Shown here piece after piece: positions 1,305-18,900 of a stretch of 64,000 bases of DNA (position 1 is its first letter; each line of letters begins with the position of its first letter). The position numbers and the translations under genes are program-made. The notes below the pieces were generated by a model. That model made no database searches and was not told the DNA's origin. It saw only the letters and a program-made list of their open reading frames with translations. Where the stretch lies: assembly GCA_045568435.1 (NCBI GenBank), contig JBJLBB010000001.1, positions 492,413 to 556,412 on the forward strand. Direction: 5' to 3'. The DNA comes from Candidatus Poseidoniaceae archaeon (GTDB lineage Archaea > Thermoplasmatota > Poseidoniia > Poseidoniales > Poseidoniaceae).

Positions 1305-4300
1305 TCACTTTTTGTTATCGTGTAATTCTCTGGCTTGCTTAGCCCACTGGTCTCGCTTAACACGGCCTGGGAAGAACTCGATTGCTTTGTTGACTTCTTC
1401 TTCGATCTTAGACGTCATATTACCAACTTGTTCAAAGTTGTAAATTCCCAAAGCATTCAATTTTTCAGCAATAAAAGGCCCTATTCCTTTGATTTCTTGC
1501 AAATCGTCTTGCTCATCAATAGTGGCAACTCCAAGTGTGGAAAAGTCAATCGTCTTGGCTCGAGCTCTAACACGTTCTAATTCTTCTAACTTCTTGGCTC
1601 TCAACTTCTCTGTTTCTGCTTCTGTTTTTGCTTTTGCTTCTGCTTCTGCTTTTGCTTTTGCTTTTGCTTCTGCTTTTGCTTCTGTCATTGATTTGGCTTT
1701 TGCCTCTGCTTCAGCATTGGTTTTCTTACTTTCAGATTCGAGATTCTCCTGTTGCTTAACATATCCAGGGTCCGGCTTTACCTTAACATCCCAGATCAAG
1801 TAAACTGAATTTCTACCAATCTTGATAGCACCTTGGAATTCACCACCGCCGAGAGTTGGCTCTAAACTATCATCAAAGATTAGTTGGAACTTAATCACTC
1901 CTTCCTCGTCTGCTTCAAACATTCTTACTTCTTCATTTCCGTATGTCAGGTCTTCTGTCGTAAACTTGCGCTCGCCTTGTTGCACTGAGTAATCAACTGA
2001 TTGTATTTTCAAACCAGGAGTGATGTTGGTAATGGTAATCAATTCCTCGCTGTAGATTGTATCACCAGGGTTGACGTCATTGGCTGGTTTGAGGACGAAA
2101 GGATTGTCCTTTGTTCCTTCACCTTCAGCAAACTTAGGCCTTGAAGTGGTATTTTCTGGTTCTGCATCAAGAATTACTTCTTTATCGCTCGGGAAAAACA
2201 GTACAAATATCAATAATAATAGAAGAATGATAATCGGGAAACATATGTAACCCCACTTAAATTGGCTATCACCTTCATCTTCATCTTCTAAATCTATAAC
2301 TTCTTCAAGCACACTAATCGTGATGTTAAACGATTGGCCATGAGCAGAATTGTTTGCCCATATAGTGAACTGTGTAGCATCCATTGCTTCAGTTGGTGTA
2401 CCTGTTATACTTCCATCAAGGTGTGCGTCTCTAGCTGGACTCCATCCAAAGATTAGACCTGCAGGCAGTTCGCTACTAATCTCCCAAGTTGCAACTTCAC
2501 CTAGGCCAGAAACTGTCGGTAATTGAATACTAATTTCATTGCCTAAGGTAAGTGTCAATGTGTCTGAAGGGTATGTCATGGTAAATGGTAAGTCAAGGAT
2601 TGTATCAAGTGCGTCACAGATTCCATCGCCATCTTCATCGCCTGGAACACTGTTTTGAACGGAACTGTCAGTTCCACAATTTACTTCCATTTCGTCTGAC
2701 CAGTTGTCATTGTCATCATCAAGGTCCTCAACAAGAGGTGGCGTACTAGTGGATTCTCCGTTCAAAGTGTCTGGCATTCCGTCACCATCGCTGTCAATGG
2801 AACCTGCAGAGTCGAATGGGAATGCATCTGGTCCAACTGAACAACCACCATTGGCAGGCACTTCAGGCCCATCACAAACGCCATCACCATCGCTATCAGC
2901 GTTTGATGAGTCGGTTCCAGTATTGTTTTGGTCAACGTAAGTTGATGAGTTGGTTTCCACATCATTGAGTAGTCCATCACCATCAATATCTTCATCAAGT
3001 TCATCACAAATGGAATCACCATCAAGGTCTGTTATCAATGAATTAGCGTCAAGTGGGTCGGTTGCACAATTGACTTCTTCAGCATCGCTAAAGCCGTCTG
3101 AGTCATCATCCAAGTCTTCAACTAGGCCACCTGATGGATTGTAATCAAGTGGTAGTTGATTTGGCATACCATCCGAGTCTGAATCATCAAGAACGCCTAT
3201 TTGGATTACCATCACATCATTGAACAAACTGTTGTTAGCATAGATGGTGAAGTTTGTCAACAACATATCATCTGTTGGTGTTCCCCAAATGGTTCCATTG
3301 CTTGCTCCAATAAACATGCCATCAGGCAGGTCAGGACTAATTTCATAGACAGAGTCAGAGAGAGTTGATGTTGGTCCTATACTCAACATTTCTTCATTTA
3401 TCAGCAGGTAAATCGGACCAATCGAAAGGTCATAGTCTAAATCTTCAACAGTTACATTCACCTTAACGCTCATTGAACCTACATCATTAGTTGCAGTAAT
3501 TTCATACTCTGTGCGCACCTTGATTTCTGTGGCCGTACCGCTGAGTATTCCAGTACTTGTGTCAAAGAACAAACCAGCAGATGGTTCTGGGGTAATCGAC
3601 CATTGGGCAATTGCTCCACCTGTTGACTCAGGTACCATATTCAAGACACTCGAGTTGTTTAGCAGAACTTCATCCAAAGGCACGTATGCAATCATTGGCA
3701 CTTGGTCAAGAACGGTGATTTCAATTTGTGTCGTATCCGTTCCACCAGTATTGGTGGCAGATACGGTGTAGATTTCAGATGCCTTGACTTCGTCTGGTGT
3801 ACCAGATATCTCTCCAGTTAACACATCGAACATCAAACCAGAACTGAGTTCTGGCGTAATCGACCAAGTCACTACTGGTCCACCAAGGTTTGTCGGATTA
3901 AGTGGTAAATCACTGCTTACCGTATCATTTGTCATCTGAACACTTACCAGACTGTAAGAGATTTCCGGAACAATGTCAAGAATTGTGATGTTGATGTCAT
4001 GGGATGAATTACCACCAGTGTTGTTGGCCCAAATCTTGTAGAGTTGTATTGGTTGAATCGATGTTGGTGTCCCCCAAATCGTACCGTTGCTGGTTCCAAA
4101 AGATAATCCATTATCCAGTTCTGGATAGATGCTCCATATATCAACATCAGCAACAGTACCATTGGTTATAATTGGAGTCAATGCGGTCATTGGCTGACCA
4201 ATGGTAATGACTGAACTATCTGGATCATAATCGAGTTCAACTCCCGGCGCATTTACTGTGAAATTCAATGTGTGGTTTATTGCACCACCAGTGTTGTTAG

Positions 4301-7300
4301 CCCATACAGTTAGCATAGTTTGAGATGTGACATCAATAGGTGTGCCTGTGAACACACCATTAGTGAAGAAGAGTCCATTTGGCAGGACGCCTTCATACTC
4401 CCACGTCTCGACCATTCCACCAGTGACAGTTGGATGCAATGGTGTGATTGTCGTTCCAGTAACAAATATTTCATTCTCTCGACTGTAATCTAAGCCCACT
4501 CGTGGCTCATTGATGGTAATGTTGAAATTTTGGCTCACATTTCCACCCGTATTGTTAGCCCATACGGTGTATTGTGTTCGAGTCATGTTGATTATCGGAG
4601 TACCTGAGATTTCACCGGTTGCCGAGTCAAAGCTAAGACCGGTCCCGGTAAGTTCAGGTTCAATTTCCCAAGTTTCTACAATGCCGTTGGAGACTGGACT
4701 GATTGGTGTGGCCATCGGTTCAGCGCGTGTCAGATTGTAATTGTCTGCTGCGTAACTGAAGACGACTGGAACATCAGAGATTGTTATATTCAAGTAAACC
4801 GAAAGTTGGCCACCAGAATTATTACCCCAAATCAGATACTGAGTCTTACTTTGAACGTCAATTGGTGTACCCCAAATTGTTCCATTTCCAGGACCGAAAT
4901 TCAAACCGTTTGGTTCAGTTCCCACGAATTCCCACGATGTGATAGTACCACCAGTACTGATTGGTGAGAATGATGTCGCCGAGTTGTTGGTTAATTCAAC
5001 TTCTAGTGATGGATAGGTAAACGCTGGTGCGATGTCATCAACGGTCATCTCGATAGTAGTTGAAATGTCACCAGCAGAGTTGTTCCCCCAAACTGTGAAG
5101 GTAACTGTAGCAGTCACTGCAGTTGGTGTGCCGGTGATCTCACCAGTTGTATTATCAAATTCGATGCCGGCTGGCAAATCATCATATGAATCAATCGACC
5201 ATGATGTCGGTGCTCCGTCGGTATATGTTGGAGCCGCTGCGTTAACAATACTATTCTTAGTGAACGTATACGGTGAACCTGGATACGAAATTGAAGATGG
5301 TGCTTCATCTCGAACTGATATCGTAATTGTTGTCGAAATATCGTCGGCAGAATTGTTTGCCCATACGGTGAATGTAATGGCAGAATGTATTCCTGTTGGC
5401 GTACCAGTAATGACACCGTTTCCTGAGTTAAAGGAAAGTCCTGGTATCGAAGAAGAGAGAACAGGATAAATTTCCCATGTGCTTACTACTCCACCAACGT
5501 TGGTTGGTGTTTCTCCACTGACTGGGTCATTCTTAGTAAACGTGAACGGTGAACCAGCATACGAAATGTCGGCTGCTTCATCTTGAACAGTAATCGAAAT
5601 CGTAGTCGAAATATCGTCGGCAGAATTGTTTGCCCATACTGTAAAGGTGACTGCGGAAGTTACCGCAGTTGGTGTTCCGTAGATGGTTCCGTTGGACGGC
5701 CCAAACAAGAGGCCGCTTGGCAAGGTGGATGCTGCTGGATGAATAGCCCATGTGCTGACCGCTCCACCAGCGTTGGTTGGAGTTTCTCCAACGACTTCGG
5801 TGTTCTTGGTAAACGTAAACGGTGAATTCGCATACGAAATATCAGCCGCTTCATCTTGAACGTTGATTGTAATTGTTGTCGAATTGCTGCCCGCAGAATT
5901 GTTCGCCCAAACTGTGAATGTGGAAGACCAAGTCGCATACGGGATACCATAGATCTCTCCAGTCATATCGTTGAATTGGATTCCTGTTGGTAATGCTCCA
6001 TCTCTCACAAATAACGGTGTCCCTGTCGGTGCTCCACCGGTGTTGGTGAGGGTCACTCCGCTGATGGCGGAGTTTTTGGTGAACATGTATGATGATTGTA
6101 AGTACGAAATATCAGGCGCTTCATCTTGAACAGTAATCGAAATCGTGGTTGAAATATCATCAGCAGAATTGTTTGCCCATACGGTGAATATAATGGCAGA
6201 ATGTATTCCTGTTGGTGTACCAGTAATGACACCGTTTGCTGGATTAAAAGAAAGTCCTGGTATCGAAGAAGAGAGAACAGGATAAATTTCCCATGTGCTT
6301 ACTGCTCCACCAACGTTGGTTGGTGTTTCTCCACTGACTGGGTCATTCTTAGTAAACGTGAACGGTGAACCAGCATACGAAATGTCGGCTGCTTCATCTT
6401 GAACGGTAATCGAAATCGTAGTCGAAATATCATCAGCAGAATTATTCGCCCAAACTGTAAACATGACTGCGGAGGTTACCGCAGTTGGCGTACCAGTAAT
6501 GACACCGTTTGCTGGATTAAAAGAAAGTCCTGGTATCGATATCGAAATATCAGGGGTGATTTCCCAACCATCCGGAACGCCACCTGAGTTAGTTGGAGTT
6601 TCTCCACTGACTGGGTCATTCTTAGTAAACGTGAACGGTGAATTCGCATACGAAATATCGGCTGCTTCGTCTTGAACAGTGATCGAAATCGTAGTCGAAA
6701 CATCGTCGGCAGAATTGTTCGCCCAAACTGTGAATGTTGCGGTGGAAGTCACCGCTGTTGGTGTCCCGTAGATGGTTCCGTTGGATGGACCAAACAAGAG
6801 ACCGCTTGGCAAGGTGGATGCTGCTGGGTGAATCTCCCAGGTGCTAACCGCTCCACCAGCGTTGGTTGGCGTTTCTCCAACGACTTCGGTGTTCTTGGTG
6901 AACGTGAATGGTGAGCCGGCATACGAAATGTCAGGTGCTTCATCTTGTACCGTGATCGAAACCGTGGTTGAACTACTACCTGCTGAGTTAGTCGCTGTAA
7001 TCGTAACAGAAGCCGTTGCATAGACAGCTGTTGGGGTTCCAATTAAATACCCAGAGCCAGGAGGAAGAAAAATACCTGCTGGAAGCGTACCACTGGTGAC
7101 CGAATATGATGTGCTTGAGCCACCAAAATTGCTGGGAGCGTTAATTGTATGAGTTCCCTTGGTCCACAAGAACGGTGAACCTGGATAAGAAATATCAGGT
7201 GCTTCATCTTGAACGGTGATTTGGATTGTAGTGAAACCAGAGCCAGCTGGGTTGGTTGCTTGAATTACTATCGAGTGTACAGTACTCACCGCCGTAGGTG

Positions 7301-8987
7301 TTCCAACAAGTTCGCCTGTGGAGGAATCCAGCGTCACACCGTTGGGGAGTGTACCACTGATGACCGTCCATGAATCTGCGACTCCACCAATGTTGGTTGG
7401 CGTTGCTAAATTCACAGTACTGTTCTTGGTGAACGTGAATGGTGAGCCGGCATACGAAATATCAGGGGCTTCGAGGACCATGAGCGTAAAGGTCTCTGAT
7501 GTAGTGGTGCCAAAGGCAGTCACTGTGACCGTGTGAGTAGTATTAGCGTGGCCTTCAGTAGGTGTTCCCGAGATAGTTCCGTTGCGCCAGTTCATGGTCA
7601 AACCGTCTGGAAGTTCAGGTGATACCTCGAAAATCGGATTAGTCGCTAGACCTTGACCCGTGCCTTGGTGCGATGTTAACCGCAACTCTATTGATGGAGT
7701 AGATCTCGAATGAGCGACGAATAAATCGTCATTATCGTCAATATCAATTCCAATTGTCCAACCTGCATCATCAATTTGGGTGGCAGTTGACCACGTACCA
7801 GAAATGTAATTTGTATACATCAGCTTCTTTGGTTGTCCAACGTGATAAACAGCATGCAAATTATCGTTAGAATCAACGGCAATTGCTGGGTAAAAAGCAG
7901 GAGTCCCAAGCGAGTGCCCTGCCCAGTTGCCCAGTGTTCCTGAATATACATGAGAATAAGTATCGGCAGCACCAATAATATGAATCACATCCTGTGAGTC
8001 TATCACCATATCGAGATTCTTACCAGAGTTAGAACTTAAACCCGGTATAGTTTCATTTTGCCAAATGCCATTTATGCGACTAGAAATTTTTATTTCAAGA
8101 GGATTGCTATGATAAACTGAATGTATATTGCCATCACCGTCGATTACAACTTTGGGGCTATATCCATCATCTTCCACAGTGTTTGAAATTGTGTTATCAA
8201 TCCAGGTTCCAGTTTCATCGGTGTAATGAACTAGGTTGTGATTTGTGCCATCATGTGCTGTAGCAACTACATGGATTGCTCCAGTAGTTGGATGTAAAGT
8301 AATTGCAGTTCCTGTTATCCCTTCGGGACCGGAATACACTACTGCTGACCCCAACTGAACAACATCCCATGTGCCTGATGAATTTGTGAGATATTCAACC
8401 ATTTGACTCGTTTCATTGATGTAAGCAATGTGTAATGCTCCTTGAGAATCAATAACTAAAGATGGAAGAAAACCTGTATCTGCACCATTGTCTTGGAATA
8501 CATTATCTGAAATTATACCTTCAAATTGGTAACTTAATGCCAATGTACCAGTATTATCTGAATCGGTAAAACCGTAGGCAACTGCAACTTCTCCCTGATT
8601 GTCAGTATCAATAGCCACGTCGTAAGTAATGAGTCTGTTGCCGATCAGTAATTCAGTAGTATTTTCGACTCCAGAGACCCAAGGGTTCACGGGATGAGTA
8701 TGAGTATAGGACATGGTAATGTCTGAGATAGCACTACCTGCGTTCGCTTCCGTTGAGATTGTGTCGATAATGAGCGAACCACCTGAAGCATTCACATTGA
8801 CGATGAGGCTGACCGGAAAGACCGCTGCCTGCTCGCATTCGAGGGAGTAATGGTGAGCGTCGTGTTGCCTAGACGTCGTAGGGGTTACCAGAAAGCACAC
8901 ATGTGTTGCTAAGCGAAAGGCCAGGTGGTAGTCCTGTGTGGCCGCATGAAGTCGGTGCACCGAAGCCAGAGTCAAAGGTTGGAACAA
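1305..8987 (-). CDS. Giant cell-surface protein gene 1, C-terminal 2560-aa portion. Contains Asp-box/BNR-like propeller units, about 24 He_PIG-type Ig-like domains (about 10 near-identical tandem copies), a TSP3-like Ca-binding Asp-repeat region, one TM helix, and a conserved cytoplasmic tail (beta-rich domain, E/K/A-rich helix, C-terminal HhH module). The N-terminal about 40 residues of this ORF are out-of-frame read-through; the true upstream continuation is ORF 8869..11862 via a frameshift near 8875.
   Basis: About 24 occurrences of the LPxGLxFxxxTGxIxGTPT motif. Repeated ITVQDEAADISYAxSPFTFTKN...FTVWANNSADDISTT units. DSDGDGMPD/DTDGDGICD-type repeats. TM helix WGYICFPIIILLLLLIFVLFF. C-terminal ...DDLQEIKGIGPFIAEKLNALGIYNFEQVGNMT...FFPGRVKRDQWAKQARELHDNKK. 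Confidence 0.85.
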   Translation of the reverse strand: MFQPLTLASVHRLHAATQDYHLAFRLATHVCFLVTPTTSRQHDAHHYSLECEQAAVFPVSLIVNVNASGGSLIIDTISTEANAGSAISDITMSYTHTHPVNPWVSGVENTTELLIGNRLITYDVAIDTDNQGEVAVAYGFTDSDNTGTLALSYQFEGIISDNVFQDNGADTGFLPSLVIDSQGALHIAYINETSQMVEYLTNSSGTWDVVQLGSAVVYSGPEGITGTAITLHPTTGAIHVVATAHDGTNHNLVHYTDETGTWIDNTISNTVEDDGYSPKVVIDGDGNIHSVYHSNPLEIKISSRINGIWQNETIPGLSSNSGKNLDMVIDSQDVIHIIGAADTYSHVYSGTLGNWAGHSLGTPAFYPAIAVDSNDNLHAVYHVGQPKKLMYTNYISGTWSTATQIDDAGWTIGIDIDDNDDLFVAHSRSTPSIELRLTSHQGTGQGLATNPIFEVSPELPDGLTMNWRNGTISGTPTEGHANTTHTVTVTAFGTTTSETFTLMVLEAPDISYAGSPFTFTKNSTVNLATPTNIGGVADSWTVISGTLPNGVTLDSSTGELVGTPTAVSTVHSIVIQATNPAGSGFTTIQITVQDEAPDISYPGSPFLWTKGTHTINAPSNFGGSSTSYSVTSGTLPAGIFLPPGSGYLIGTPTAVYATASVTITATNSAGSSSTTVSITVQDEAPDISYAGSPFTFTKNTEVVGETPTNAGGAVSTWEIHPAASTLPSGLLFGPSNGTIYGTPTAVTSTATFTVWANNSADDVSTTISITVQDEAADISYANSPFTFTKNDPVSGETPTNSGGVPDGWEITPDISISIPGLSFNPANGVITGTPTAVTSAVMFTVWANNSADDISTTISITVQDEAADISYAGSPFTFTKNDPVSGETPTNVGGAVSTWEIYPVLSSSIPGLSFNPANGVITGTPTGIHSAIIFTVWANNSADDISTTISITVQDEAPDISYLQSSYMFTKNSAISGVTLTNTGGAPTGTPLFVRDGALPTGIQFNDMTGEIYGIPYATWSSTFTVWANNSAGSNSTTITINVQDEAADISYANSPFTFTKNTEVVGETPTNAGGAVSTWAIHPAASTLPSGLLFGPSNGTIYGTPTAVTSAVTFTVWANNSADDISTTISITVQDEAADISYAGSPFTFTKNDPVSGETPTNVGGVVSTWEIYPVLSSSIPGLSFNSGNGVITGTPTGIHSAITFTVWANNSADDISTTITISVRDEAPSSISYPGSPYTFTKNSIVNAAAPTYTDGAPTSWSIDSYDDLPAGIEFDNTTGEITGTPTAVTATVTFTVWGNNSAGDISTTIEMTVDDIAPAFTYPSLEVELTNNSATSFSPISTGGTITSWEFVGTEPNGLNFGPGNGTIWGTPIDVQSKTQYLIWGNNSGGQLSVYLNITISDVPVVFSYAADNYNLTRAEPMATPISPVSNGIVETWEIEPELTGTGLSFDSATGEISGTPIINMTRTQYTVWANNTGGNVSQNFNITINEPRVGLDYSRENEIFVTGTTITPLHPTVTGGMVETWEYEGVLPNGLFFTNGVFTGTPIDVTSQTMLTVWANNTGGAINHTLNFTVNAPGVELDYDPDSSVITIGQPMTALTPIITNGTVADVDIWSIYPELDNGLSFGTSNGTIWGTPTSIQPIQLYKIWANNTGGNSSHDINITILDIVPEISYSLVSVQMTNDTVSSDLPLNPTNLGGPVVTWSITPELSSGLMFDVLTGEISGTPDEVKASEIYTVSATNTGGTDTTQIEITVLDQVPMIAYVPLDEVLLNNSSVLNMVPESTGGAIAQWSITPEPSAGLFFDTSTGILSGTATEIKVRTEYEITATNDVGSMSVKVNVTVEDLDYDLSIGPIYLLINEEMLSIGPTSTLSDSVYEISPDLPDGMFIGASNGTIWGTPTDDMLLTNFTIYANNSLFNDVMVIQIGVLDDSDSDGMPNQLPLDYNPSGGLVEDLDDDSDGFSDAEEVNCATDPLDANSLITDLDGDSICDELDEDIDGDGLLNDVETNSSTYVDQNNTGTDSSNADSDGDGVCDGPEVPANGGCSVGPDAFPFDSAGSIDSDGDGMPDTLNGESTSTPPLVEDLDDDNDNWSDEMEVNCGTDSSVQNSVPGDEDGDGICDALDTILDLPFTMTYPSDTLTLTLGNEISIQLPTVSGLGEVATWEISSELPAGLIFGWSPARDAHLDGSITGTPTEAMDATQFTIWANNSAHGQSFNITISVLEEVIDLEDEDEGDSQFKWGYICFPIIILLLLLIFVLFFPSDKEVILDAEPENTTSRPKFAEGEGTKDNPFVLKPANDVNPGDTIYSEELITITNITPGLKIQSVDYSVQQGERKFTTEDLTYGNEEVRMFEADEEGVIKFQLIFDDSLEPTLGGGEFQGAIKIGRNSVYLIWDVKVKPDPGYVKQQENLESESKKTNAEAEAKAKSMTEAKAEAKAKAKAEAEAKAKTEAETEKLRAKKLEELERVRARAKTIDFSTLGVATIDEQDDLQEIKGIGPFIAEKLNALGIYNFEQVGNMTSKIEEEVNKAIEFFPGRVKRDQWAKQARELHDNKK
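1611..1690 (-). repeat. Hexanucleotide microsatellite-like tract (GCTTTT/GCTTCT units) encoding the (A/E/K)n helical linker in the cytoplasmic tail of giant gene 1.
   Basis: Direct reading: ...tctgcttctgtttttgcttttgcttctgcttctgcttttgcttttgcttttgcttctgcttttgcttctg... encoding AKAEAKAKAKAEAEAKAK on the minus strand. Confidence 0.85.
4500..7520 (-). repeat. Coding tandem repeat array in giant gene 1: about 10 near-identical ~290-300-bp units, each encoding one He_PIG-type Ig-like domain.
   Basis: The protein shows about 10 consecutive ~97-aa units beginning ITVQDEA[AP]DISYAxSPFTFTKN and ending FTVWANNSADDISTTIS, several identical over more than 80 residues. The same peptides recur in multiple plus-strand artefact ORFs (5032..5469, 6463..6675, 6841..7023, 7318..7536). 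Coordinates are approximate. Confidence 0.8.
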
Positions 8988-11862
8988 GCGAACTCATCGG
9001 CACATTTTGTCCGAGTCGCAGGGTGCTTGAAACCAAGTTTGTCGTGTTATCCCAAGCATGGTTACCTGAAACCGAAACAGGTGCGTGTTGGTCAGTACCG
9101 ATTCCACCATCACCCAACTGCCCATATAGATTCCATCCCCAGCAAGTCATGGAAGCATCGTCAAGGATGACGCAGGTGTGGTATTGTCCCAGAGAAATCG
9201 CAACGGCAGTCCAGCCGGCGGACAGGTTGACGTGAACGGGTGAGGCTTGGTCGGTGTTTGTTGGGCCGTCAAATCCCAATCCCCCTACAATATTCGACCC
9301 CCAACAATAAGTGGATTCGTTGTCAAGGATGGCGCAGGTGTGGTAATCTCCTGCATCAACTGCAACTGCACCCCGACCGGGGGGAAGATCGACGTAAACA
9401 GGAGATAGTTGATTGCTGGTTCCAGCACCGTTGCCCAACTGAGAATTAACATCCTTCCCCCAGCACATCAATGAACGATTGTCAAGAATGGCGCAACTGT
9501 GTTGAAAAGCAGCAACGATTGAAACGGCGGTTCGGCCGGTGGGAAGGTTGACGTAAACAGGTGATACTTGATCACTGCCTCCCGCACCTTCGCCCAACTG
9601 TCCTGAATCGTCCCTTCCCCAGCACATCAGGGAACCGGTGTCAAGAAGAGCACAGGTATGCTGATTTCCAACAGACACCGCAACGGCGGTTCGGCCATAT
9701 GGAAGGTTGACGTAAACAGGTGATTCTTCGTCATCTTTATTCAAATCACCATTACCAAGTTGACCGTCTGCGCCTAAGCCCCAACACATCAAAGAACCAG
9801 TATCAAGAATCGCACAGGAGTGCTTCCCACCCACGCTAAGCCCAACTGCAGACCGGCCGGTGGGAAGGTCGACCAAAACAGGTTCATCTTGGAAGGCGGT
9901 CGTTGTTGCACCGTTGCCCAACTGCCCATTTCCATCACCGCCCCAACACATCACTGAACCGGTGTCAAGAAGAGCACAGGTGTGGAAGTTTCCAGCAGAC
10001 ACTGCAACGGCCTTTTGGCCGGAAGGCAAATTCACCAAAACAGGTTCCTCTTGGGAGACGGTCGTTGTTGCACCGTTGCCCAACTGTCCTACGTGGTCAC
10101 GTCCCCAGCACATCAATGAACCGGTGTCAAGGATGGCGCAGGTGTGTTGAAGTCCAGCTGCCAGCTTGTTGTTGACGTATTCCAAAGATTGGAAATTACT
10201 GCTCCCTGAACCCCAATCATAGGACATCAAAGGTGGTGCGTTGACTGAAATTGTCAGTGTAGTGGTATCTGAACCATGTGCATTGTATGCTGTAATGGTG
10301 TAGACTGCCGATGAAGAGATTTCAGTTGGTGTCCCCGAGATAGTCCCGTCGGCTAAATTCAAACTCAACCCGTTTGGTAGGTCAGGGCTTACTGAATATC
10401 CAAAAGAATCTGTGCCGATGTAACCCAAAGTCTGTCCTGACCAATTGGTGAATGTTATATGTACGCTATCATCAATCTGGTTAACAGCAAGTGAGTTCTC
10501 CCAGCCGACAAATGCTGTGCCTTCTACAAGTGTAACACTCGACCAAGATAATGCAGAAGCACATGATGAAAAGCATTTGGCATACTTTATGTCGTAATTG
10601 GGAAGATTCGTGAAATATGATACATGTATACCATTATTGGAATCAACACCGATAGAGTTGGGGGCACCACCGACATTATCAATGGCCGTAGTCGACCACG
10701 AAGATGCTGATGTACATAATGATGCACACATGCTGTAAAAGGGATTTGCAAGGTCTTGGTCATAGAAGACCATGTGCAATACATCGTTTGAGTCAACGGT
10801 CAAAGAGTGCCATTTAATCGAATCCTCAGGAGCATTTAGGTTTGTAATGGTCCATGAAGAGGCTGTTGTACAGGATAAAGTACAGGTGGCATAATATTGG
10901 TTAGAATTGCCCGAGCCAGTTCCCTGTGTACCCGCACTGCTGTAAACAATGTGTAAATCATTATTAGAATCAATCGTCATCGAGGCATATTCGCCAATAT
11001 CGCCATTATCATCAACAGTAATGCTAGACCATGAAGAGGCTGTTGTGCACAATGAAGTACATGTAGCATATTTTAGAGCCTTATTGGCACTAGAGGAATC
11101 GTAGTAGGAAATGTGTAAGTTATCATTTGAATCAATTGCAATCGAGTTGTATTTTCCTACATCACCTGAGTTGTCAATGATAATACTTGACCATGATGAT
11201 GGAGTTCCACAGGAAGAAGCACAAGAAGAGTACATGAGGTTTTTGACGCCAGTTCCTTCAGGGTTAAGATAACCAAAGTAAGCAATGTGAATTACATTAT
11301 TTGAATCAATAGCAAGGGAGTTGTGGCCGCCAACATCATTAGCAGAAACAAGAGATGTTTCGACCCAAGACCCACTACTATCGGAAATATATTTTAGATT
11401 ACCATTCCCAGAATCATACATAGATATATGGCTATCTCCATTCGAATCAAGAGCAAGTGAGTGAGGATGGGAACCATAGACCTGTAGGTTTGAGAGGGTT
11501 TGAGGTTCAACAGCTCCACCAGAATTTATCGGAGTTATTGGGGTCATGGTTTGGTTGTTGGAAAGATCGAGTGTACTTGAGGAATAGGTAATCGAAGGTG
11601 CGCTTGAGTACATGGGATTGTTTAACTCTTCAAGTTCGCTTTCATCGTCTTCTACAAGCCAAGGGGCTTTGTTCAGTTCCACGAGGCCCACAGAAAGGGA
11701 CATGGAGACCATTAACACGGCAAGAAGGATTGATTTCATGGATTTTAATCCTAAACTACTTCTGGAATTTGCATCATATGTGACACTCATGCTCGCGCTA
11801 ACTACGAACTGCTTATCATAGTTAACCCTATAATTTCCTAAAATGCAGGTTAAATTTAGCAC
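8869..11862 (-). CDS. Giant cell-surface protein gene 1, N-terminal 997-aa portion: signal peptide, Asp-box/BNR-like beta-propeller units, about 8 RCC1 repeats. Probable true start is the ATG at 11739 (MKSILLAVLMVSMSLSVGLV...). It ends at a stop created by a 1-nt frameshift; the gene continues in ORF 1305..8987.
   Basis: Signal-peptide-like MKSILLAVLMVSMSLSV after an internal ATG. Repeated G.Y.SxAxDSNxxxHIxY...SSWS units containing SGSW/SGTW (Asp-box-like). Repeated xHTCAILDTGSLMCWGxDxxGQLGNG units (RCC1 signature). The track start at 11862 is GTG. Confidence 0.8.
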   Translation of the reverse strand: MLNLTCILGNYRVNYDKQFVVSASMSVTYDANSRSSLGLKSMKSILLAVLMVSMSLSVGLVELNKAPWLVEDDESELEELNNPMYSSAPSITYSSSTLDLSNNQTMTPITPINSGGAVEPQTLSNLQVYGSHPHSLALDSNGDSHISMYDSGNGNLKYISDSSGSWVETSLVSANDVGGHNSLAIDSNNVIHIAYFGYLNPEGTGVKNLMYSSCASSCGTPSSWSSIIIDNSGDVGKYNSIAIDSNDNLHISYYDSSSANKALKYATCTSLCTTASSWSSITVDDNGDIGEYASMTIDSNNDLHIVYSSAGTQGTGSGNSNQYYATCTLSCTTASSWTITNLNAPEDSIKWHSLTVDSNDVLHMVFYDQDLANPFYSMCASLCTSASSWSTTAIDNVGGAPNSIGVDSNNGIHVSYFTNLPNYDIKYAKCFSSCASALSWSSVTLVEGTAFVGWENSLAVNQIDDSVHITFTNWSGQTLGYIGTDSFGYSVSPDLPNGLSLNLADGTISGTPTEISSSAVYTITAYNAHGSDTTTLTISVNAPPLMSYDWGSGSSNFQSLEYVNNKLAAGLQHTCAILDTGSLMCWGRDHVGQLGNGATTTVSQEEPVLVNLPSGQKAVAVSAGNFHTCALLDTGSVMCWGGDGNGQLGNGATTTAFQDEPVLVDLPTGRSAVGLSVGGKHSCAILDTGSLMCWGLGADGQLGNGDLNKDDEESPVYVNLPYGRTAVAVSVGNQHTCALLDTGSLMCWGRDDSGQLGEGAGGSDQVSPVYVNLPTGRTAVSIVAAFQHSCAILDNRSLMCWGKDVNSQLGNGAGTSNQLSPVYVDLPPGRGAVAVDAGDYHTCAILDNESTYCWGSNIVGGLGFDGPTNTDQASPVHVNLSAGWTAVAISLGQYHTCVILDDASMTCWGWNLYGQLGDGGIGTDQHAPVSVSGNHAWDNTTNLVSSTLRLGQNVPMSSLVPTFDSGFGAPTSCGHTGLPPGLSLSNTCVLSGNPYDV

Positions 11863-12920: not shown

Positions 12921-15900
12921 TCACTTTTTGTTATCGTGTAATTCTCTGGCTTGCTTAGCCCACTGGTCTCGCTTAACACGGCCTGGGAAGAACTCGATTG
13001 CTTTGTTGACTTCTTCTTCGATCTTAGACGTCATATTACCAACTTGTTCAAAGGTGTAGATACCAAGAGCATACAGTTTCTCAGCGATAAAAGGACCAAT
13101 TCCCTTGATGGTTTGCAGGTCATCTTTCTCATCAATAGTTGCCACACCAAGTGTTGCAAAGTCAATAGTTTCGGCCTTCTTAGCAATACGCTCCAACTCT
13201 TCAGCCTGCTTGAGAGCTTTTTCGTCCAATTTGACATCTTCACCAAGTAGAATCTTGGCTTGATTTACCCATTGGTCTCGCTTGACTCGTCCTGGGAAGA
13301 ACTCGATAGCCTCGTTGACTTGAGTCTCCAGTTTAGCAGTCATGTTAGCAATTTGTCGATAGGTTGTGATACCTAAGGCATTCAACTTCTCTTCGATAAA
13401 CGGACCGATTCCCTTGATTACCTGCAAATCATCCTTTACCATTACAACTGAAGCTTTACCAAATACTCTGGTTATTCCACCAACACCGGTTAAAGTATTG
13501 CCGTCTTTACCAGTCCAAGTGATTATTGTCGAGCCCTTGTCATCGGTAATTGCGGCACTTCCAGCATCAGCAAACTCCTTAGCATTAGCAACTTCCAATG
13601 TCTTAGCACCCTTCTTGACTTCACTTTTCAGTTTGGTCGAAGATGCTGTTCCTAGTACCTTGAAGTCAATGGTCTTCGCACGTGATTTAACACGCTCAAT
13701 TTCCTCTTCCTTCTTGGCTTCTTTAGTGGTTGCTGGTTTCTTCTTTGCTGCTGCTTTCTTGGCCTTTTCTGCATCAGCCTTAGCCTTCTTTTCTGCCTCT
13801 TCGGCTTCCTTCTTGGCTTTGGCTTCTGCTTCAGCGGCTGCTGCTGCATCTGCTTCTTTCTTGGCTTTCGCTTCTGCCTCTTTGGTAGCCTTAGCATCTG
13901 CTTCTTCCTTAGCCTTCTTCTCAGCCTCTTCGGCTTCTTTCTTGGCTTTCTTGTCAGCAGCGGCTTCCTTCTTAGCCTTGGCTTCAGCAGCCTTGGCATC
14001 TTTTTCTGCCTTCTTTTGAGCCTTCTCTTCAGCCTCTGCTATTGCGACTGCTGCTAGAGCTTCTTCCTCAGCCTTCTTGGCTGCTTCAGCCTCTTCCTCC
14101 TCAAGTCGAGCCTTCTCTTCAGCCTCTGCTGCAGCGGTTTCTTCGGCTTCCTTCTCAGCCTTCTTTTCTGCTTCTTTGGCCTCCTTAGCGGCTTGCTTTT
14201 CAGCCTCTGCTGCTTCCTTCTTAGATTGCTTTTCGGCTTCTTTCTCAGCCTTCTTACGCTCTGCTTCGAGTTTCTTTTGTTCCTTGACATAATCTGGGTC
14301 TGGTTTGACCTTGATATCCCACATGAAGTAGACAGACCTTCGTCCTACCTTGACTGCACCTTGGAATTCTCCACCAGCAAGTGTTGGTTTGAAACTATCA
14401 TCAAACAATAATCGGAATTTCATTACTCCATCATCATCAGCGACTATCATTCGAGTTCCTTCTTCACTTCCTGAATCATCTTGCATCAGGAATCTACGCT
14501 CGTTCTCGCGGTCAAAGTAGTCTTGAGACTTAACCTTCAAACCCGGAGTAATATCAGTAATTGTAATCAATTCTTTACTGACTACAACCGAACCAGGCTT
14601 AACTGTCTTGAGTGGTTTCAAGATGAATGGATTATCCTTAGTACCGACACCATCTGTAAACTTCGGCTTTGAAGTTGTATTTTCTGGTTCAGCATCATCA
14701 ACTAATGCAATTACTCTATCCCTTAGAAGGAATATAGGTATCAGTAGAAGTAGCAGTAATAAGAAGCAAAGTGGGAAACACCACCAAGCCATTCCTTCAT
14801 CATCCTCATTATCACCATCGCCTTGTAGTTGGTCACAAATATCACCATCTGTATTTTCTGGACTCGATGAATTATCATATGGATTAGACCCACAATCAAT
14901 TTCATCTTGGTCAAAGAAACCATCATTATCATCATCATGGTCTACAGTGATATTTCCTGTATAATTAGCAGGCAGACTATCTGGTAAAGAGTCATTATCG
15001 GTATCATTGAAAACGGTAATTGATAGAATAAATGAATGTTGATAATTACTATTGTTAGCCCAAACGGTAACATTAACTGGCTCTTCGGAGTAATTTGTAG
15101 GTGTACCTCTAATTCCACCATCGAGCATTGCATCTCTTGCTGGGCTCCAGCCAAATGTCAATCCTTCAGGGATTTCTCCATCGATTTCCCATGAAGCAAC
15201 TTCGCCTATTCCAGTAACGTTTGGTAAGAAATCAACCATTGTCTTGTTGACAAATAGGTCGACATATTGAGATTCATAAGTCATATTGAAATCAAGGTCA
15301 ATAATGTCATCTAATGCATCACAAATTCCATCCCCATCCATATCTGGAAGGAGATTGACAACCTTTGGATCAGTTCCGCACATTTCCTCAGTCAAGTCAA
15401 CAATGGTATCATTATCGTCATCTAAGTCTTCGATTAGACCTGTTGTTGAATTTCCATTGAGCTCATCAGGCATACCATCCCCGTCAGTATCAAGCGATGC
15501 TGCTGGGTCGTTAGGGAACGCGTCTGGGCCAGCGACACAAATTGCTACATCAGGAGTTGCAGGTCCGTCACAAACTCCGTCACCATCGGTGTCAGGGTTT
15601 GCAGGGTCTGTACCTGTATCTGAAGTTGAATTGTATATTCCAGTCTCGGTTTCAAAGATATTATCGATTCCATCACCGTCTTTGTCATCATCAAGTGCAT
15701 CACAAATTCCGTCACCGTCCATGTCACTAGGAACATCAGTTGCATTTAGTGGGTCAGACAAACAATCGTTCTCTAGGGTGTCTAGGAAACCATCGTTATC
15801 ATCATCATCATCTGCAATTAGACCACCATCACCATCAGGGTCATCGTCTGGGAAGGCGTCACCATCGGTGTTAACCGGCAGTGCTGGGTCAAGAGGATGT

Positions 15901-18900
15901 GAGTCAGGACCAGCGTAGCATACGCCGTCAACTGCATCAGGACCGTCACAGAATCCATCACCATCGGTGTCTGGATTGAGTGAATCAGTACCATTGGTTG
16001 CTTCATCAACATCCGGCATACCATCAGCGTCATCATCCAAATCTTCGATTAAATCAAATGGTGGCAAGCCAGTATCTGGATAATCATCCGGCAACTGGTC
16101 AGGCATACCATCTCCGTCGGTGTCTTCCAAAATCTCAAGCCAGAAAGTAGATTCTACACTTCTTGGCTCAGAAGTATTAGCCCAGAGAGTGAATGTGGTA
16201 TTGTCCATGGTCTCAAGTGGTGTTCCACTAATTATTCCGGTGTTGACATCTAAAGTCAAACCTGCAGGTAAGTCAGGAGATACTGCCCAAATAGCGCCAG
16301 GAACGGCGTTAGCAGGAGGTAGTGGAATCATCTCAGTATTATTGACAAGTACAGTTGGGCCAAGTGGACCGGTTCCAACTGGGTTGGAGTCAGGACCAGC
16401 GATACAAATTGGTAAGACCGAATTTGGACCATCACAAATACCATCATCATCGGTATCTGGGTCAAGTGGGTCTGTTCCCATATCACCAGAACCATTGAAT
16501 ATTCCAGTTCCAGTTTCAGCGACATCAGATGCCCCATCGCCATCATCATCCAAGTCTTCAACCAAGTCAAATGGTGCTTCACCAATTGTTGGATAATCAT
16601 CTGGTAATTCGTTTGGCAGACCGTCTCCGTCAGTATCTTCCAACACTTGCATGTTGAATGACCAACTCGAAGTGAAACCATCTGCAGTTACATTAGCAAA
16701 TAGCGTGTATGTGATATTATCTGTGACTTCTGTTGGTGTTCCAGAGATTACTCCAGTAACTGGATCTATTACGATTCCAGCAGGTAGTGCTGGATGAACT
16801 TCGTAAACCGCATCATCAACATCATACTTAGGCATCAAGTAGGTCATTGGTGTATTGTTGAGTAAGTATGCTGTACCATCAATTGCCGTACCAAGTTCAG
16901 TATCTGGACCTGCTACACAGATTGGTAATACGTCAATTGGACCATCACAAATACCGTCGTTATCGGTATCTGGGTCAAGTGGGTCGGTACCAGTATCTGT
17001 GTCGCCATTGTAGATTCCAGTATTGGTTTCGTTAACGTCCTCAATACCGTCACCATCATCGTCCAAGTCCTCAACAAGAGGAGGCACGCTGTTGGATGGT
17101 GGATTCAGAGTATCTGGGTCACCATCACCGTCAGTATCAGTATCAGCCGATGGGTCAAGTGGGAAAGCATCTGGACCAGCAACACAGTCTGGCTCAAAGG
17201 CAACTGGACCATCACACATACCGTCACCATCAGTGTCCGGATTAGTTGGGTCGGTACCATCTTCTGCTTCATCAACATCAGAGTTACCGTCATTATCATC
17301 ATCCATATCCTCAATCAAGCCAGGTGAGTCAGGATTGGTTGGGTCGTAATCATCTGGCAGCTCATTTGGCATACCATCGCCGTCACTGTCCTCAAGAATC
17401 TCAATTGTGAAATCCCAAGACAGCGAAGTTCCGTCAGTGTGGTTAGACCAGACAGTGAATGTTGTGTTAGTCAAGGTTTCAGTTGGCATACCGGTAATAT
17501 CACCAGTGTTTGGATCGATTGACAAACTCGCCGGTAGGTCAGGTGAAATCTCGAAAGTTCCACCAGGCACTACCAAGTAAGGTGCAAGGTCGTTGATGGC
17601 AGTATTGTTGACTCCAACCAAGGTTGGTGGTGGTGTGTTACCATTTGGTGATGGGTCAGGACCGGCAATACAAATTGGTGGTACTGCATTTGGACCATCA
17701 CAAATTCCATCATCATCAGTGTCAGGGTCAAGTGGGTCAGTTCCAGTATCTTGTCCATTGATGTAGATGCCAGTATCAGTCTCAACGGTGTCAAGTAAGC
17801 CATCTCCGTCATCATCATCATCAGCAATCAAGCCGGAAGTAGGTGGATTGGCTGGGTTGTAGGCTGGTGGCAAGTCATTTGCCAGGCCATCGCCATCAGT
17901 ATCGAGTAGACTTTCAAGACTGAAAGTAAAGGTTTCAGTTGCGCCACTACTATGGGTTGCAGTAACGGTAAATGTATCACTCATTGGACTGTCAACCGTA
18001 CCGGTAATCTCACCAGTTGCACTATCTTGCAATAGAGTGTTTGGCAAAGTTGGTGAAATGCTCCATGTGGTTGTGCCATCCCAGAATGCAGGATGGAAGC
18101 CGATTGCATCAATCGGTTGGTCTTCCACTACAGTGTGTGGATAAGCATTGTCCACGCTGAAGTACAATTCGTGCGTGGTCGAATAACCGCTTTGGTTGGC
18201 GTAAATAGTGTAGGTTTGATTGGTCGCATAGACCGAAGGTGTGCCGCTAATCGTACCGCCTGAGATACTCATACCTGCAGGTAGTGGTGGTTCGGTCTCC
18301 CATGATACTGGTGGAGTGTAATTTGAGTAAGTAATCACTGAAGGTTGATATCCAGCAACTCTTGGGTATGGGCAATTTGGACTTCCTTGCCCAGTTTCCG
18401 ACCACCGAGTTCCAATATCATAATACAGAACATCATCAATTACAAATGAAAAGCGCTTACCTGGACTTACACCATAATTAATGATATAACTAGAGCATGA
18501 TGAAGTGGCAGTAGGATGTGTAGGCATATCAGTATAATGATTTGATACAAAATATAGTGACTCGTTTGATATATCATAAGCCCAAAGATGACCATTATTT
18601 GCAGTATAGTAACCCGGACTCCCTCCTTGTTGGAATGAGTTATCGTGTGCATGTCCTGAAAAATAAATAGTATCACCGACAACCAAACTCATTTCACTCC
18701 CCGGGTCGAACCCGGTAAACGGATTACCTGGTAAGTCCGTTATCATCCATGCTGTTTCGTTTGTGGTGTTGTAAGCCCAAAGTTCCTCAGCGTTGCTATC
18801 GTCATCAAAACCAAAATAAATTACATCATTAACTATGAGGCGCATGTTATTAGTGGGAAAGCCACAACCACTATTGTAAAGACACGGGAAATTCGGCACT

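What the first reader, a model, noticed from the sequence alone, without database searches (positions are those of the whole stretch)
1305..2230. Conserved cytoplasmic tail on the giant surface proteins: beta-rich domain, E/K/A single-alpha-helix spacer, C-terminal helix-hairpin-helix module
After the single TM helix both giants keep about 150 aa of a conserved beta-rich domain (DAEPENTTS[RK]PKF..GTKDNPF[VI]LKP...VY[LF][IM]WD[VI]KVKPDP). This is followed by an alternating E/K/A tract typical of ER/K single alpha helices (rigid spacers), then a module DDLQxIKGIGPFIxEKLNALGIxxFxQVxNMT...AIEFFPGRVKRDQW with a G-I-G hairpin typical of HhH nucleic-acid-binding folds (one copy in gene 1, two in gene 2). 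A giant extracellular sensor/adhesin wired through one TM to a possible intracellular nucleic-acid-binding module is an unusual architecture. It suggests surface-to-nucleoid signalling or tethering, a membrane-anchored one-component logic with a giant ectodomain. This is speculative.
Basis: inference. Interest (0 to 1): 0.75.

Follow-up and report, generated by a model that had tools for sequence, protein, structure and literature searches.

The report
Nucleoid-tether-like tail on archaeal giant surface proteins
Two giant cell-surface proteins of a marine Group II archaeon end, inside the cell, in a conserved three-part tail whose last domain is related to a bacterial domain reported to fasten storage granules to the chromosome, so these surface proteins are probably fastened to the cell's DNA rather than sending a gene-specific signal.

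Summary
Window 1305-2255 (minus strand) encodes a TM helix, a 134-aa beta domain, a 71-aa E/K/A tract and an 82-aa C-terminal module. Gene 2 (12921-14789) has the same tail with a longer spacer, an extra small domain and two modules. The organism is a Poseidoniaceae (Marine Group II) archaeon.

The tail is a portable cassette. It occurs in 18 loci of Poseidoniales MAGs and in most of 115 representative protein clusters, nearly always as TM, beta domain, charged tract, then 1-3 terminal modules.

The beta domain folds confidently (pLDDT 93) as a PapD/ASH-like Ig sandwich. It has no Pfam family, but it has clear homologues in phage tail-fibre-like proteins.

Best reading: a spacer-mounted nucleoid tether, not a sequence-specific signalling device. 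DNA binding and topology are inferred, not shown. This is a new variant of a known kind.

The parts
1305..8987 (-). Gene 1, main open frame (2560 codons) of a giant surface protein. The ectodomain has 13 He_PIG Ig repeats and TSP3-type repeats.
8869..11862 (-). Probable N-terminal part of gene 1: a signal-peptide-like start (MKSILLAVLMVSMSLSVGLV), RCC1 propeller repeats and a He_PIG domain. It is separated from the main frame by two frame switches near 8870-8990.
2193..2255 (-). Single transmembrane helix of gene 1 (WGYICFPIIILLLLLIFVLFF), with an acidic stretch on its N-terminal side.
1767..2168 (-). Membrane-proximal beta domain of gene 1 (DAEPENTTS...VKVKPDP, 134 aa). It is a PapD/ASH-like Ig sandwich and a new family with no Pfam model.
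1554..1766 (-). E/K/A-rich charged tract of gene 1 (71 aa, about 10.7 nm if fully helical), a probable extended helical spacer. Part of it (1609-1711) is encoded by a 6/12-nt tandem DNA repeat.
   Evidence: matches to the TolA and zuotin charged tracts
1308..1553 (-). C-terminal PhaH/COG3743-type HhH module of gene 1 (TIDFSTLG...ELHDNKK, 82 aa).
1425..1508 (-). Canonical helix-hairpin-helix motif DDLQEIKGIGPFIAEKLNALGIYNFEQV.
12921..21782 (-). Gene 2, main open frame (2953 codons). It probably continues upstream into ORF 22184-25615 through several frame switches within the RCC1 repeats.
14724..14789 (-). Transmembrane helix of gene 2, followed by RDR.
14295..14696 (-). Beta domain of gene 2, 60% identical to that of gene 1.
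13674..14294 (-). E/K/A tract of gene 2 (207 aa, about 31 nm if fully helical).
13434..13673 (-). Extra ~80-aa domain of gene 2 (TIDFKVLG...WTGKDGNTLTGVGGITRVFGKASVVMVK), fold and function unknown. It recurs in all two-module tails.
13236..13433 (-). HhH module A of gene 2.
12924..13169 (-). HhH module B of gene 2, 87.5% identical to the gene 1 module. A 22-aa linker helix (13170-13235) precedes it.

Best explanation
The region encodes the cytoplasmic tail of a type-I, single-pass giant surface protein of a Poseidoniaceae (Marine Group II) archaeon.

The tail is a conserved, portable cassette with three parts:
1. A membrane-proximal Ig-like beta sandwich. It is a previously unmodelled family with a PapD/ASH-like fold and probably serves as a protein-protein or oligomerisation platform.
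2. A variable-length, probably helical E/K/A spacer, encoded partly by slippage-prone short DNA repeats.
3. One to three terminal (HhH)2-like modules of the PhaH/COG3743 family.

Most likely mechanism: as reported for Caulobacter PhaH, the HhH module binds DNA without sequence specificity. The spacer would span the 10-30 nm from membrane to nucleoid. The tail would then fasten the giant surface protein, and with it the membrane, to the chromosome. The nucleoid would serve as a scaffold for anchoring, spacing or partitioning these proteins.

What is shown: the anatomy, its conservation, the predicted folds, and the homology to the PhaH, NuoE, S2, L21 and Urf1 C-terminal domains.

What is inferred: the cytoplasmic location, the helical state of the spacer, DNA binding by this archaeal module, and the biological purpose.
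For: - Anatomy and coordinates.
- Organism: 18 related loci, all in Poseidoniales or euryarchaeal MAGs; the best is 96% identical over the beta domain.
- The same order of TM, beta domain, charged tract and module(s) is seen in those loci.
- An exhaustive phmmer search finds 115 representative clusters. 43 of 57 have a TM-like segment within 75 aa upstream. 45 of 63 with enough downstream sequence carry 1 (28), 2 (16) or 3 (1) modules. The last module reaches within 3 residues of the C-terminus in 46 of 49.
- The tail is much more conserved than the ectodomains (60-87.5% versus 25-36%).
- Module alone: NuoE PRK12373 E 1.7e-16 and 1.9e-17; S2 and L21 1e-10 to 1e-13; PhaH NF045508 E 1.8e-8 and 1.4e-9, all aligned to the last ~64 positions of those models. 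Urf1/protein-O match at E~1e-11 for the single sequence and ~5e-33 for a profile that itself included those two bacterial sequences, so the profile value is circular and only the single-sequence value is independent.
- PhaH's C-terminal HhH domain binds DNA non-specifically and positions PHB granules on the nucleoid (review PMC13052382; PMC12678847).
- A soluble relative combines the module with a SAP DNA-binding motif (P0254: precomputed Pfam PF02037, sequence).
- Topology: signal-peptide-like N-termini; extracellular-type ectodomain families; N-glycosylation sequons enriched in the ectodomains (47 versus 32.6+-4.9; 48 versus 28.1+-4.6); Cys 6 and 35 in the ectodomains versus 0 in the tails; a more acidic N-side TM flank; and all known bacterial carriers of the module are cytoplasmic or cytoplasm-facing (PMC12079452).
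Against: - No DNA-binding data exist for this archaeal module, and the PhaH result is known here only through a review, because the primary paper is not held.
- The module core is slightly acidic (net -1 to -2) and the beta domain strongly acidic (net -14).
- The closest structural neighbours include protein-binding (HhH)2 domains (NusA AR1/AR2) and an rRNA-contacting ribosomal protein (mL85).
- Module model confidence is only moderate (pLDDT 75.6, pTM 0.62), and all Foldseek E-values are >=0.26.
- Two recent structural papers call the function of the homologous bacterial domain 'obscure', and it was not resolved in their maps (PMC12079452, PMC13066640).
- Why ribosomal proteins or complex I would be tethered to DNA is not obvious.
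- The beta domain has homologues in virion (extracellular) proteins, and some family members carry a He_PIG-like domain after the TM. Domain types alone therefore do not prove an intracellular location.
- The tail contains conserved N-x-T sequons (ENTT, NMT).
Confidence: 0.5

Rival explanations
1. The module is a protein-protein (or ribosome/RNA) docking tag rather than a DNA binder. It would attach its carrier to a shared cytoplasmic partner or to other copies of itself, as NusA AR1/AR2 and SAM-like domains do. That would cluster the giant proteins or couple them to ribosomes or the insertion machinery.
For: - The module is fused to ribosomal proteins S2 and L21 and to NuoE in Alphaproteobacteria.
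- Its net charge is slightly negative.
- It often occurs in tandem.
Against: - It is homologous to the PhaH HhH domain, for which non-specific DNA binding is reported.
- The HhH motif is of the DNA-backbone-binding type seen in pol beta, Dpo4 and RadA.
- The second, hairpin-like loop carries the invariant basic motif GR..RD.W..QA.
- A relative is fused to a SAP DNA-binding motif.
Confidence: 0.25
2. One reading: a membrane-tethered one-component system. The giant ectodomain senses a surface cue, and the HhH module, perhaps after regulated proteolysis, controls specific genes.
For: - The architecture resembles an outside sensor, one TM helix and an inside DNA-binding-type domain.
- An MscS channel gene lies next to tail-bearing giants in the window and in L020, which could hint at mechanosensing.
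Against: - HhH domains bind the DNA backbone without sequence specificity, and the PhaH homologue is described as non-specific.
- The terminal module is 87.5% identical on two paralogues with very different ectodomains, and the same domain sits on NuoE, S2, L21 and a phasin.
- No wHTH or other sequence-specific DNA-binding domain is detected.
- Spacer length varies from 7 to 295 aa.
- Separate HTH_10 regulators are encoded beside several of these genes.
Confidence: 0.08
3. The tail lies outside the cell, or the hydrophobic segment is not a stop-transfer anchor. The HhH module would then bind extracellular DNA, as ComEA does, and the beta domain would act as an extracellular adhesin domain.
For: - The beta domain is homologous to a domain of phage baseplate/tail-fibre-block proteins.
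- A He_PIG-like domain follows the TM in P0164 and P0165.
- The tail has conserved N-x-T sequons.
- ComEA is a membrane-anchored extracellular (HhH)2 DNA receptor (own knowledge; a weak ComEA profile hit appears).
Against: With a signal-peptide-like N-terminus and a single internal TM helix, an extracellular tail would force the 2,200-4,000-aa ectodomain into the cytoplasm. That ectodomain is sequon-enriched, Cys-containing and built of He_PIG, TSP3 and RCC1 repeats. The tails contain no Cys. Basic residues directly follow the TM helix in most family members. All bacterial carriers of the module are cytoplasmic.
Confidence: 0.04
4. The tail has no specific function. It is a low-complexity 'stuffer' carried on decaying pseudogenes, given the frame switches in both genes.
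For: - Both giants are interrupted by frame switches.
- The E/K/A tract is a slippage-prone DNA repeat of variable length.
Against: - Both tail reading frames are intact.
- The tail is the best-conserved part of the proteins.
- It is kept in at least 45 clusters at 50% identity and in 18 MAG loci.
- The two globular parts fold with pLDDT 93 and 76.
- The closest relative, L001, has an uninterrupted 2,293-codon frame over the same region.
Confidence: 0.05

Closest known systems
Caulobacter crescentus phasin PhaH (NCBIfam NF045508; Salinas et al. 2023, cited through review PMC13052382)
   Same: Both have a C-terminal HhH domain of the same sequence family (module versus model positions 168-231 of 234, E 1.8e-8 and 1.4e-9), placed at the very end of the protein behind a linker. 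Both follow the same logic: a cargo-binding part, a spacer, and a non-specific DNA-binding end that uses the nucleoid as a scaffold.
   Different: The PhaH cargo is a cytoplasmic PHB granule bound by the N-terminal part of a 234-aa soluble bacterial protein. Here the 'cargo' is a 2,500-4,000-aa archaeal transmembrane surface protein, the tail also has an Ig-like domain, and the module can be duplicated. DNA binding has not been tested for the archaeal module.
[quoted passage not shown]
   Same: The module is the same, with about 38-40% identity and invariant DDL..I.G.G...G...Q...E..GR..RD.W..QA. It has the same placement at the extreme C-terminus after an Ala/Glu/Lys(/Pro)-rich linker. JGI names the archaeal relatives 'predicted flap endonuclease-1-like 5' DNA nuclease'.
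   Different: Those are bacterial, soluble or multi-pass membrane components of energy-conversion or translation complexes. Their C-terminal domain was not resolved by cryo-EM and its function was called obscure (PMC12079452, PMC13066640). No nuclease domain is present here, so the 'nuclease' name does not apply.
ASH / PapD-like / MSP Ig domains (CFAP65, Hydin, CEP192 SPD-2, OCRL ASH, VAP MSP)
   Different: Sequence identity is only 8-16%, and there is no match to any Pfam Ig family, including PF22544. Its true sequence relatives are a domain in phage tail-fibre-like giants (hhalign 99.9%).
TolA domain II and the zuotin charged helix (EAK-type tracts); ER/K single alpha helices
   Same: A long Ala/Glu/Lys tract with an excess of i to i+3 and i to i+4 opposite charges and almost no Pro or Gly. 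The presumed role is a rod-like spacer.
   Different: It is richer in Ala than classical ER/K helices, the helical and monomeric state was not tested, and the length is highly variable between homologues.
Membrane-tethered one-component regulators (ToxR, CadC) and ComEA (own knowledge)
   Same: One TM helix links an outside domain to a DNA-binding-type domain (ToxR/CadC). ComEA is a membrane-anchored (HhH)2 domain.
   Different: ToxR and CadC have an N-terminal, sequence-specific winged-helix domain, and ComEA's HhH lies outside the cell. Here the HhH is C-terminal, non-specific in type, probably inside the cell and spacer-mounted.

Membership tests
PhaH/COG3743-type C-terminal HhH (H3TH) domain | Sequence match to the family's profiles (C-terminal ~65 aa of PhaH, NuoE, S2, L21 and Urf1) | tested here: met
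   The module alone gives NuoE E 1.7e-16 and 1.9e-17, S2 1e-12 to 4e-13, L21 1e-10 to 1e-13, and PhaH 1.8e-8 and 1.4e-9. Urf1/protein-O match at E~1e-11. Scores fall below the whole-protein cut-offs because those models cover the full-length proteins.
PhaH/COG3743-type C-terminal HhH (H3TH) domain | Canonical helix-hairpin-helix motif (h..h.GhG...A..h) | tested here: met
   The motif is LQEIKGIGPFIAEKLNALGI. G26 and G28 are invariant across archaeal and bacterial members. There are weak profile hits to Dbh/Dpo4, pol beta and RadA HhH and to Pfam HhH-clan families.
PhaH/COG3743-type C-terminal HhH (H3TH) domain | Compact five-helix (HhH)2-like fold | tested here: met
   [not shown]
PhaH/COG3743-type C-terminal HhH (H3TH) domain | Located at the extreme C-terminus behind a low-complexity charged linker | tested here: met
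   The last module reaches within 3 residues of the C-terminus in 46 of 49 representatives. The alignment to NuoE includes the linker.
PhaH/COG3743-type C-terminal HhH (H3TH) domain | Non-specific DNA binding and nucleoid association | not testable with these tools
   Reported for PhaH only (PMC13052382). Testing needs EMSA or localisation of the archaeal module.
FEN-1-like 5' nuclease (the name JGI and COG give to relatives) | PIN-like 5' nuclease catalytic domain | tested here: not met
   No 5'-3' exonuclease or XPG family hit appears in the tails or the full proteins. Only the HhH/H3TH-like piece is present.
   It is not listed for the tails at E<=1 or for the module alone at E<=10.
ER/K single alpha helix | E/K/R-dominated composition, dense i to i+4 salt-bridge pattern, no hydrophobic seam, monomeric helix | tested here: inconclusive
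   E+K is 42-53% and Ala 24-33%. Opposite-charge i+3/i+4 pairs number 22 versus 15.5+-3.1 and 86 versus 67.6+-6.3 in shuffles. There is one Pro or Gly per tract. The helical and monomeric state was not computed because no structure-prediction jobs remained.
ASH/PapD-like/MSP Ig-like domains | Seven-to-ten-stranded Ig-like sandwich superposable on ASH/PapD-like domains | tested here: met
   [not shown]
ASH/PapD-like/MSP Ig-like domains | Sequence membership in a described family (for example PF22544 HYDIN/CFA65/VesB-like Ig, PF00635 MSP) | tested here: not met
   The beta domain matches no Pfam family at E<=10.
ToxR-like membrane-tethered one-component regulators | Sequence-specific (winged-helix/OmpR-type) DNA-binding domain on the cytoplasmic side | tested here: not met
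   Only sub-threshold HhH-clan matches appear in the tail.
PEP-CTERM / PGF-CTERM sorting signals | Motif immediately before a TM helix that lies at the extreme C-terminus and is followed by a few basic residues | tested here: not met
   The 'PEPEN' motif lies after the TM helix, and 290-600 residues follow it.

The most novel reading that the evidence does not exclude
The PhaH/COG3743 HhH module is a general 'nucleoid-hitchhiking tag'. In Poseidoniales it would create a continuous physical link from an extracellular substrate, through a giant adhesin and one TM helix, along a 10-30 nm rod, to the chromosome. That would be a prokaryotic counterpart of integrin-cytoskeleton or LINC-type coupling. 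It could position or partition surface proteins, hold the nucleoid at the membrane, or transmit mechanical load, possibly together with the MscS channels encoded next to some of these genes. The same tag would imply that alphaproteobacterial complex I, RC-LH1 and ribosomes are also organised on the nucleoid.
Probability: 0.15. Interest if true: 0.85.

Novelty: new variant of a known kind. Interest (0 to 1): 0.6.

Why it matters
Marine Group II archaea are among the most abundant planktonic archaea and remain uncultured. Their giant surface proteins are usually discussed only as adhesins.

A conserved intracellular cassette on these proteins gives a concrete, cheaply testable hypothesis about how an archaeal cell organises or anchors its largest surface proteins. 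The cassette ends in a domain whose only characterised relative tethers cargo to the nucleoid.

It also links three loose ends. One is the 'obscure' C-terminal domain noted in two recent RC-LH1 structures. Another is the odd extensions of alphaproteobacterial NuoE, S2 and L21. The third is the PhaH nucleoid tether. All three appear to be one mobile module that is also present in archaea.

The work also defines a new Ig-like domain family shared with phage tail-fibre-like proteins.

Tried and rejected
- DUF4332: not matched.
- 'FEN-1-like nuclease' label: no nuclease domain is present.
- PEP-CTERM/PGF-CTERM sorting signal: wrong order and position.
- First beta-domain alignment with fragments (A1): unusable for locus search.
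- Word-indexed search with the beta domain: only 4 fragments. The exhaustive search was needed.
- Both word-indexed module searches listed only short, mostly fragmentary archaeal hits, so bacterial fusion partners could not be tabulated from them.
Only the TM-less relatives hit a phage.
- AFDB Foldseek library: unavailable.
- Literature: nothing found on MGII giant-protein tails. COG3743 appears only as a name. There was nothing on NuoE extensions of this type. The mL85 papers give only an rRNA-end contact. The primary PhaH paper is not held.
- Extra domain of gene 2: no convincing Pfam, PHROG or PDB match.
- Synteny: the HTH_10 and MscS neighbours recur but are not universal, so they are not treated as parts of the system.
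- Plus-strand ORFs 1335-1580 and 1489-1803 are antisense read-throughs of the repeat-encoded tract and have no support.
Full report
**Observation**

The finding lies on the minus strand, at the 3' end of a 2560-codon open frame (1305-8987). Translation reproduces the quoted motifs. From N- to C-terminus it shows:
- an acidic stretch;
- one hydrophobic helix, WGYICFPIIILLLLLIFVLFF (2193-2255);
- a 134-aa beta-rich segment, DAEPENTTS...VKVKPDP (1767-2168);
- a 71-aa Ala/Glu/Lys tract (1554-1766);
- an 82-aa terminal module, TIDFSTLG...DDLQEIKGIGPFIAEKLNALGI...FFPGRVKRDQWAKQARELHDNKK (1308-1553).

The second giant (12921-21782) has the same order, with a 207-aa tract, an extra ~80-aa domain and two modules. 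HMMs built from family alignments find these elements only in these two genes of the window. Between the paralogues the beta domain is 60% identical and the terminal module 87.5%, against 25-36% for the ectodomains. The tail is therefore the conserved part.

**Organism and gene structure**

A scan of one genome per species with the beta domain returned 18 loci. All are from Poseidoniales, 'Methanobacteriota' or uncultured euryarchaeote MAGs. Contig CASIAI010000002.1 (Candidatus Poseidoniaceae) carries the counterparts of both genes, with 96% beta-domain identity for gene 1.

Both giants are interrupted upstream by frame switches:
- Gene 1 continues into ORF 8869-11862 through two switches near 8870-8990.
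- Gene 2 continues into ORF 22184-25615 through several switches inside RCC1 repeats.

The upstream ORFs start with signal-peptide-like hydrophobic segments. The ectodomains are made of RCC1 propellers, many He_PIG Ig repeats and TSP3-type repeats.

**The tail is a portable cassette**

In all 18 loci the frame reads TM, beta domain, charged tract, then one module (short tails, ~290 aa) or extra domain plus two modules (long tails, 530-610 aa).

An exhaustive phmmer search of 1.84 billion representatives with the beta domain gave 115 clusters, 71 of them at E<=1e-10. Among these:
- 43 of 57 with enough upstream sequence have a TM-like segment within 75 residues.
- 45 of 63 with at least 130 residues downstream carry the module, once (28), twice (16) or three times (1).
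- The last module reaches within 3 residues of the C-terminus in 46 of 49.
- The distance from beta domain to first module ranges from 7 to 295 residues.

The ectodomains attached to the cassette differ: He_PIG, TSP3, RCC1, Laminin_G_3 and RibLong.

Variants exist. P0164 and P0165 insert a He_PIG-like domain between the TM helix and the beta domain. P0202 and P0205 replace the module with a long Ser/Glu/Asp/Lys tract that has a Lys-rich end.

**Beta domain**

The weakest hits of the exhaustive search lack a TM helix and look like phage fibre proteins. Profile-profile comparison shows they are true homologues (hhalign 99.9%, E 1.7e-34 over 120 columns). One group matches PHROG virion structural proteins. 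It also matches gp119 of Synechococcus phage S-CBWM1, which lies between baseplate and tail-fibre genes. The domain is thus a new Ig-like family used both on virions and in these tails. Its fold says 'binding platform', not 'inside' or 'outside'.

**Spacer**

The tracts are 24-33% Ala, 21-27% Lys and 21-26% Glu, with one Pro or Gly each. Opposite-charge i+3/i+4 pairs exceed shuffles by 2-3 SD: 22 versus 15.5+-3.1, and 86 versus 67.6+-6.3. They match TolA (NCBIfam TIGR02794) and zuotin in a PDB sequence search. If helical they would span about 10.7 nm and 31 nm.

In gene 1 the tract is encoded by a 6/12-nt tandem repeat (1609-1711), which fits the large length variation among homologues. 'ER/K single alpha helix' is plausible but not verified.

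**Module**

Pfam gives only sub-threshold HhH-clan matches: Cdd1, DNA_pol_lambd_f, HHH_5, IMS_HHH, HHH_8 and HHH_2. DUF4332 is not matched.

NCBIfam places the isolated module on the last ~64 positions of:
- alphaproteobacterial NuoE (E 1.7e-16 and 1.9e-17);
- S2 and L21 (1e-10 to 1e-13);
- phasin PhaH (1.8e-8 and 1.4e-9).

The PDB sequence search finds Rhodovulum Urf1/protein-3h (9wqv_a) and Dinoroseobacter protein-O (8yy9_O) at E~1e-11. In both papers this C-terminal domain was invisible in the map and its function was called obscure or unknown (PMC12079452, PMC13066640).

JGI names the archaeal relatives 'predicted flap endonuclease-1-like 5' DNA nuclease'. [quoted passage not shown] No nuclease domain is present.

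The HhH assignment therefore holds, at moderate structural confidence. Columns invariant between archaeal and bacterial members are DDL..I.G.G, G, Q, and E...GR..RD.W..QA.

**Functional anchor**

A 2025 review states that Caulobacter PhaH binds PHB granules with its N-terminal part and binds DNA non-specifically with its C-terminal helix-hairpin-helix domain. This distributes granules along the nucleoid, and granules become disorganised when phaH is deleted (PMC13052382; see also PMC12678847). The primary paper (Salinas et al. 2023, pmid 37487601) is not held.

Because the window's module is homologous to exactly that part of the PhaH model, the best-supported mechanism is a non-specific DNA (nucleoid) tether mounted on a spacer. 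A soluble relative that combines the module with a SAP motif points the same way (P0254).

**Topology**

Several lines place the tail in the cytoplasm:
- signal-peptide-like N-termini;
- extracellular-type repeats in the ectodomain;
- N-glycosylation sequons enriched in the ectodomains (47 versus 32.6+-4.9; 48 versus 28.1+-4.6) but not in the tails;
- Cys counts of 6 and 35 in the ectodomains against 0 in the tails;
- a more acidic N-side TM flank, -2.96 versus -0.58;
- basic residues directly after the helix in most members;
- the cytoplasmic location of all bacterial carriers of the module.

This is inference. The phage relatives of the beta domain and the post-TM He_PIG-like domain in P0164/P0165 are reasons for caution.

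**Mechanism and rivals**

I assign about 0.5 to the nucleoid-tether reading: the anatomy is shown, DNA binding and purpose are inferred. The rivals are:
- about 0.25 for a protein or ribosome docking tag, suggested by the NusA-AR and mL85 neighbours, the S2/L21/NuoE fusions and the slightly acidic charge;
- about 0.04 for an extracellular tail;
- about 0.05 for no function or gene decay.

**Comparison and novelty**

The module is a member of a known but barely characterised family (PhaH/COG3743). The beta domain is a new sequence family of a known fold. The spacer is of a known type.

In the literature I could search I found no description of this combination: a conserved intracellular cassette on archaeal single-pass giant surface proteins. 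I rate it a new variant of a known kind (cargo, spacer, HhH nucleoid tether), with interest 0.6. The finding is unexpected and cheap to test in vitro, but its function rests on homology to one bacterial protein known here second-hand.

**Context noted**

The two giants are separated by an HTH_10 regulator gene (12070-12813). An MscS channel gene (25612-26913) sits at the 5' end of gene 2. HTH_10 genes recur next to tail-bearing giants in L013, L021 and L023, and an MscS orthologue (50% identity) recurs in L020. Neither neighbour is universal.

Noticed in passing
window 8870-8990 and 21650-22300 (minus strand): Both giant genes are interrupted by frame switches. He_PIG and RCC1 repeat sequence continues in another frame, so gene 1 probably spans 1305-11862 and gene 2 spans 12921-25615. 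The cause is either sequencing indels or real decay.
   Followed up: partly
window 13434-13673 (minus strand): Gene 2 has an extra ~80-aa domain (…KGAKTLEVANAKEFADAGSAAITDDKGSTIITWTGKDGNTLTGVGGITRVFGKASVVMV) directly before module A. It is present in all long tails and in fragments such as P0109. There is no convincing Pfam, PHROG or PDB match (DUF6438 at E 0.006 only).
   Followed up: partly
P0193, P0204, P0216, P0222, P0226, P0236; L019 9001-12630 (Synechococcus phage S-CBWM1 gp119): The tail's beta domain is homologous (hhalign 99.9%) to a domain near the N-terminus of TM-less giant proteins that resemble phage fibre proteins. One relative is a cyanophage gene between the baseplate-wedge and tail-fibre genes.
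   Followed up: partly
P0164 (aa ~215-330) and P0165: In two family members a He_PIG-like Ig domain sits between the TM helix and the beta domain, on the presumed cytoplasmic side. That is unusual for this normally extracellular repeat.
   Followed up: no
P0202, P0205: These tail variants keep the TM helix and beta domain but replace the HhH module with a 180-250-aa Ser/Glu/Asp/Lys tract ending in Lys-rich runs. This may be an alternative polyanion-binding end.
   Followed up: no
P0254; also P0069, P0098, P0118, P0269: The module also occurs in small proteins: alone, in tandem, behind an N-terminal TM helix (P0269), or fused to a C-terminal SAP DNA-binding motif (P0254, Pfam PF02037).
   Followed up: no
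window 25612-26913; L020 8573-9916: An MscS-type mechanosensitive channel gene abuts a tail-bearing giant gene in the window and, as a 50%-identical orthologue, next to the divergent giant P0198. This is only two cases.
   Followed up: partly
window 12070-12813; L013 7857-8597; L021 4367-4948; L023 1-467: An HTH_10 (Bat-type) regulator gene recurs beside tail-bearing giant genes in several contigs.
   Followed up: partly
window 1609-1711; 13799-13917; 14139-14242: The E/K/A tracts are encoded by short tandem DNA repeats (periods 6/12, 24/48 and 33 nt). This is a likely source of the large spacer-length variation between homologues.
   Followed up: partly
window 45917-50929, 37205-40752, 33580-35517, 30573-32684: There is another large protein with HYDIN/CFA65/VesB-like Ig domains but no tail. 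Other genes nearby are T2SSE/T2SSF-type (pilus or archaellum assembly-like) genes, a PolX with HhH and PHP domains, and an H+-pyrophosphatase.
   Followed up: no
[not shown]
   Followed up: partly
window 1-1215 (minus strand): A gene starting near 1215 with a signal-peptide-like N-terminus (MRVAVITILLLTAMYPLVTSSS) runs off the window start. The DNA downstream of the tail is conserved in L001, L003-L006 and L015.
   Followed up: no
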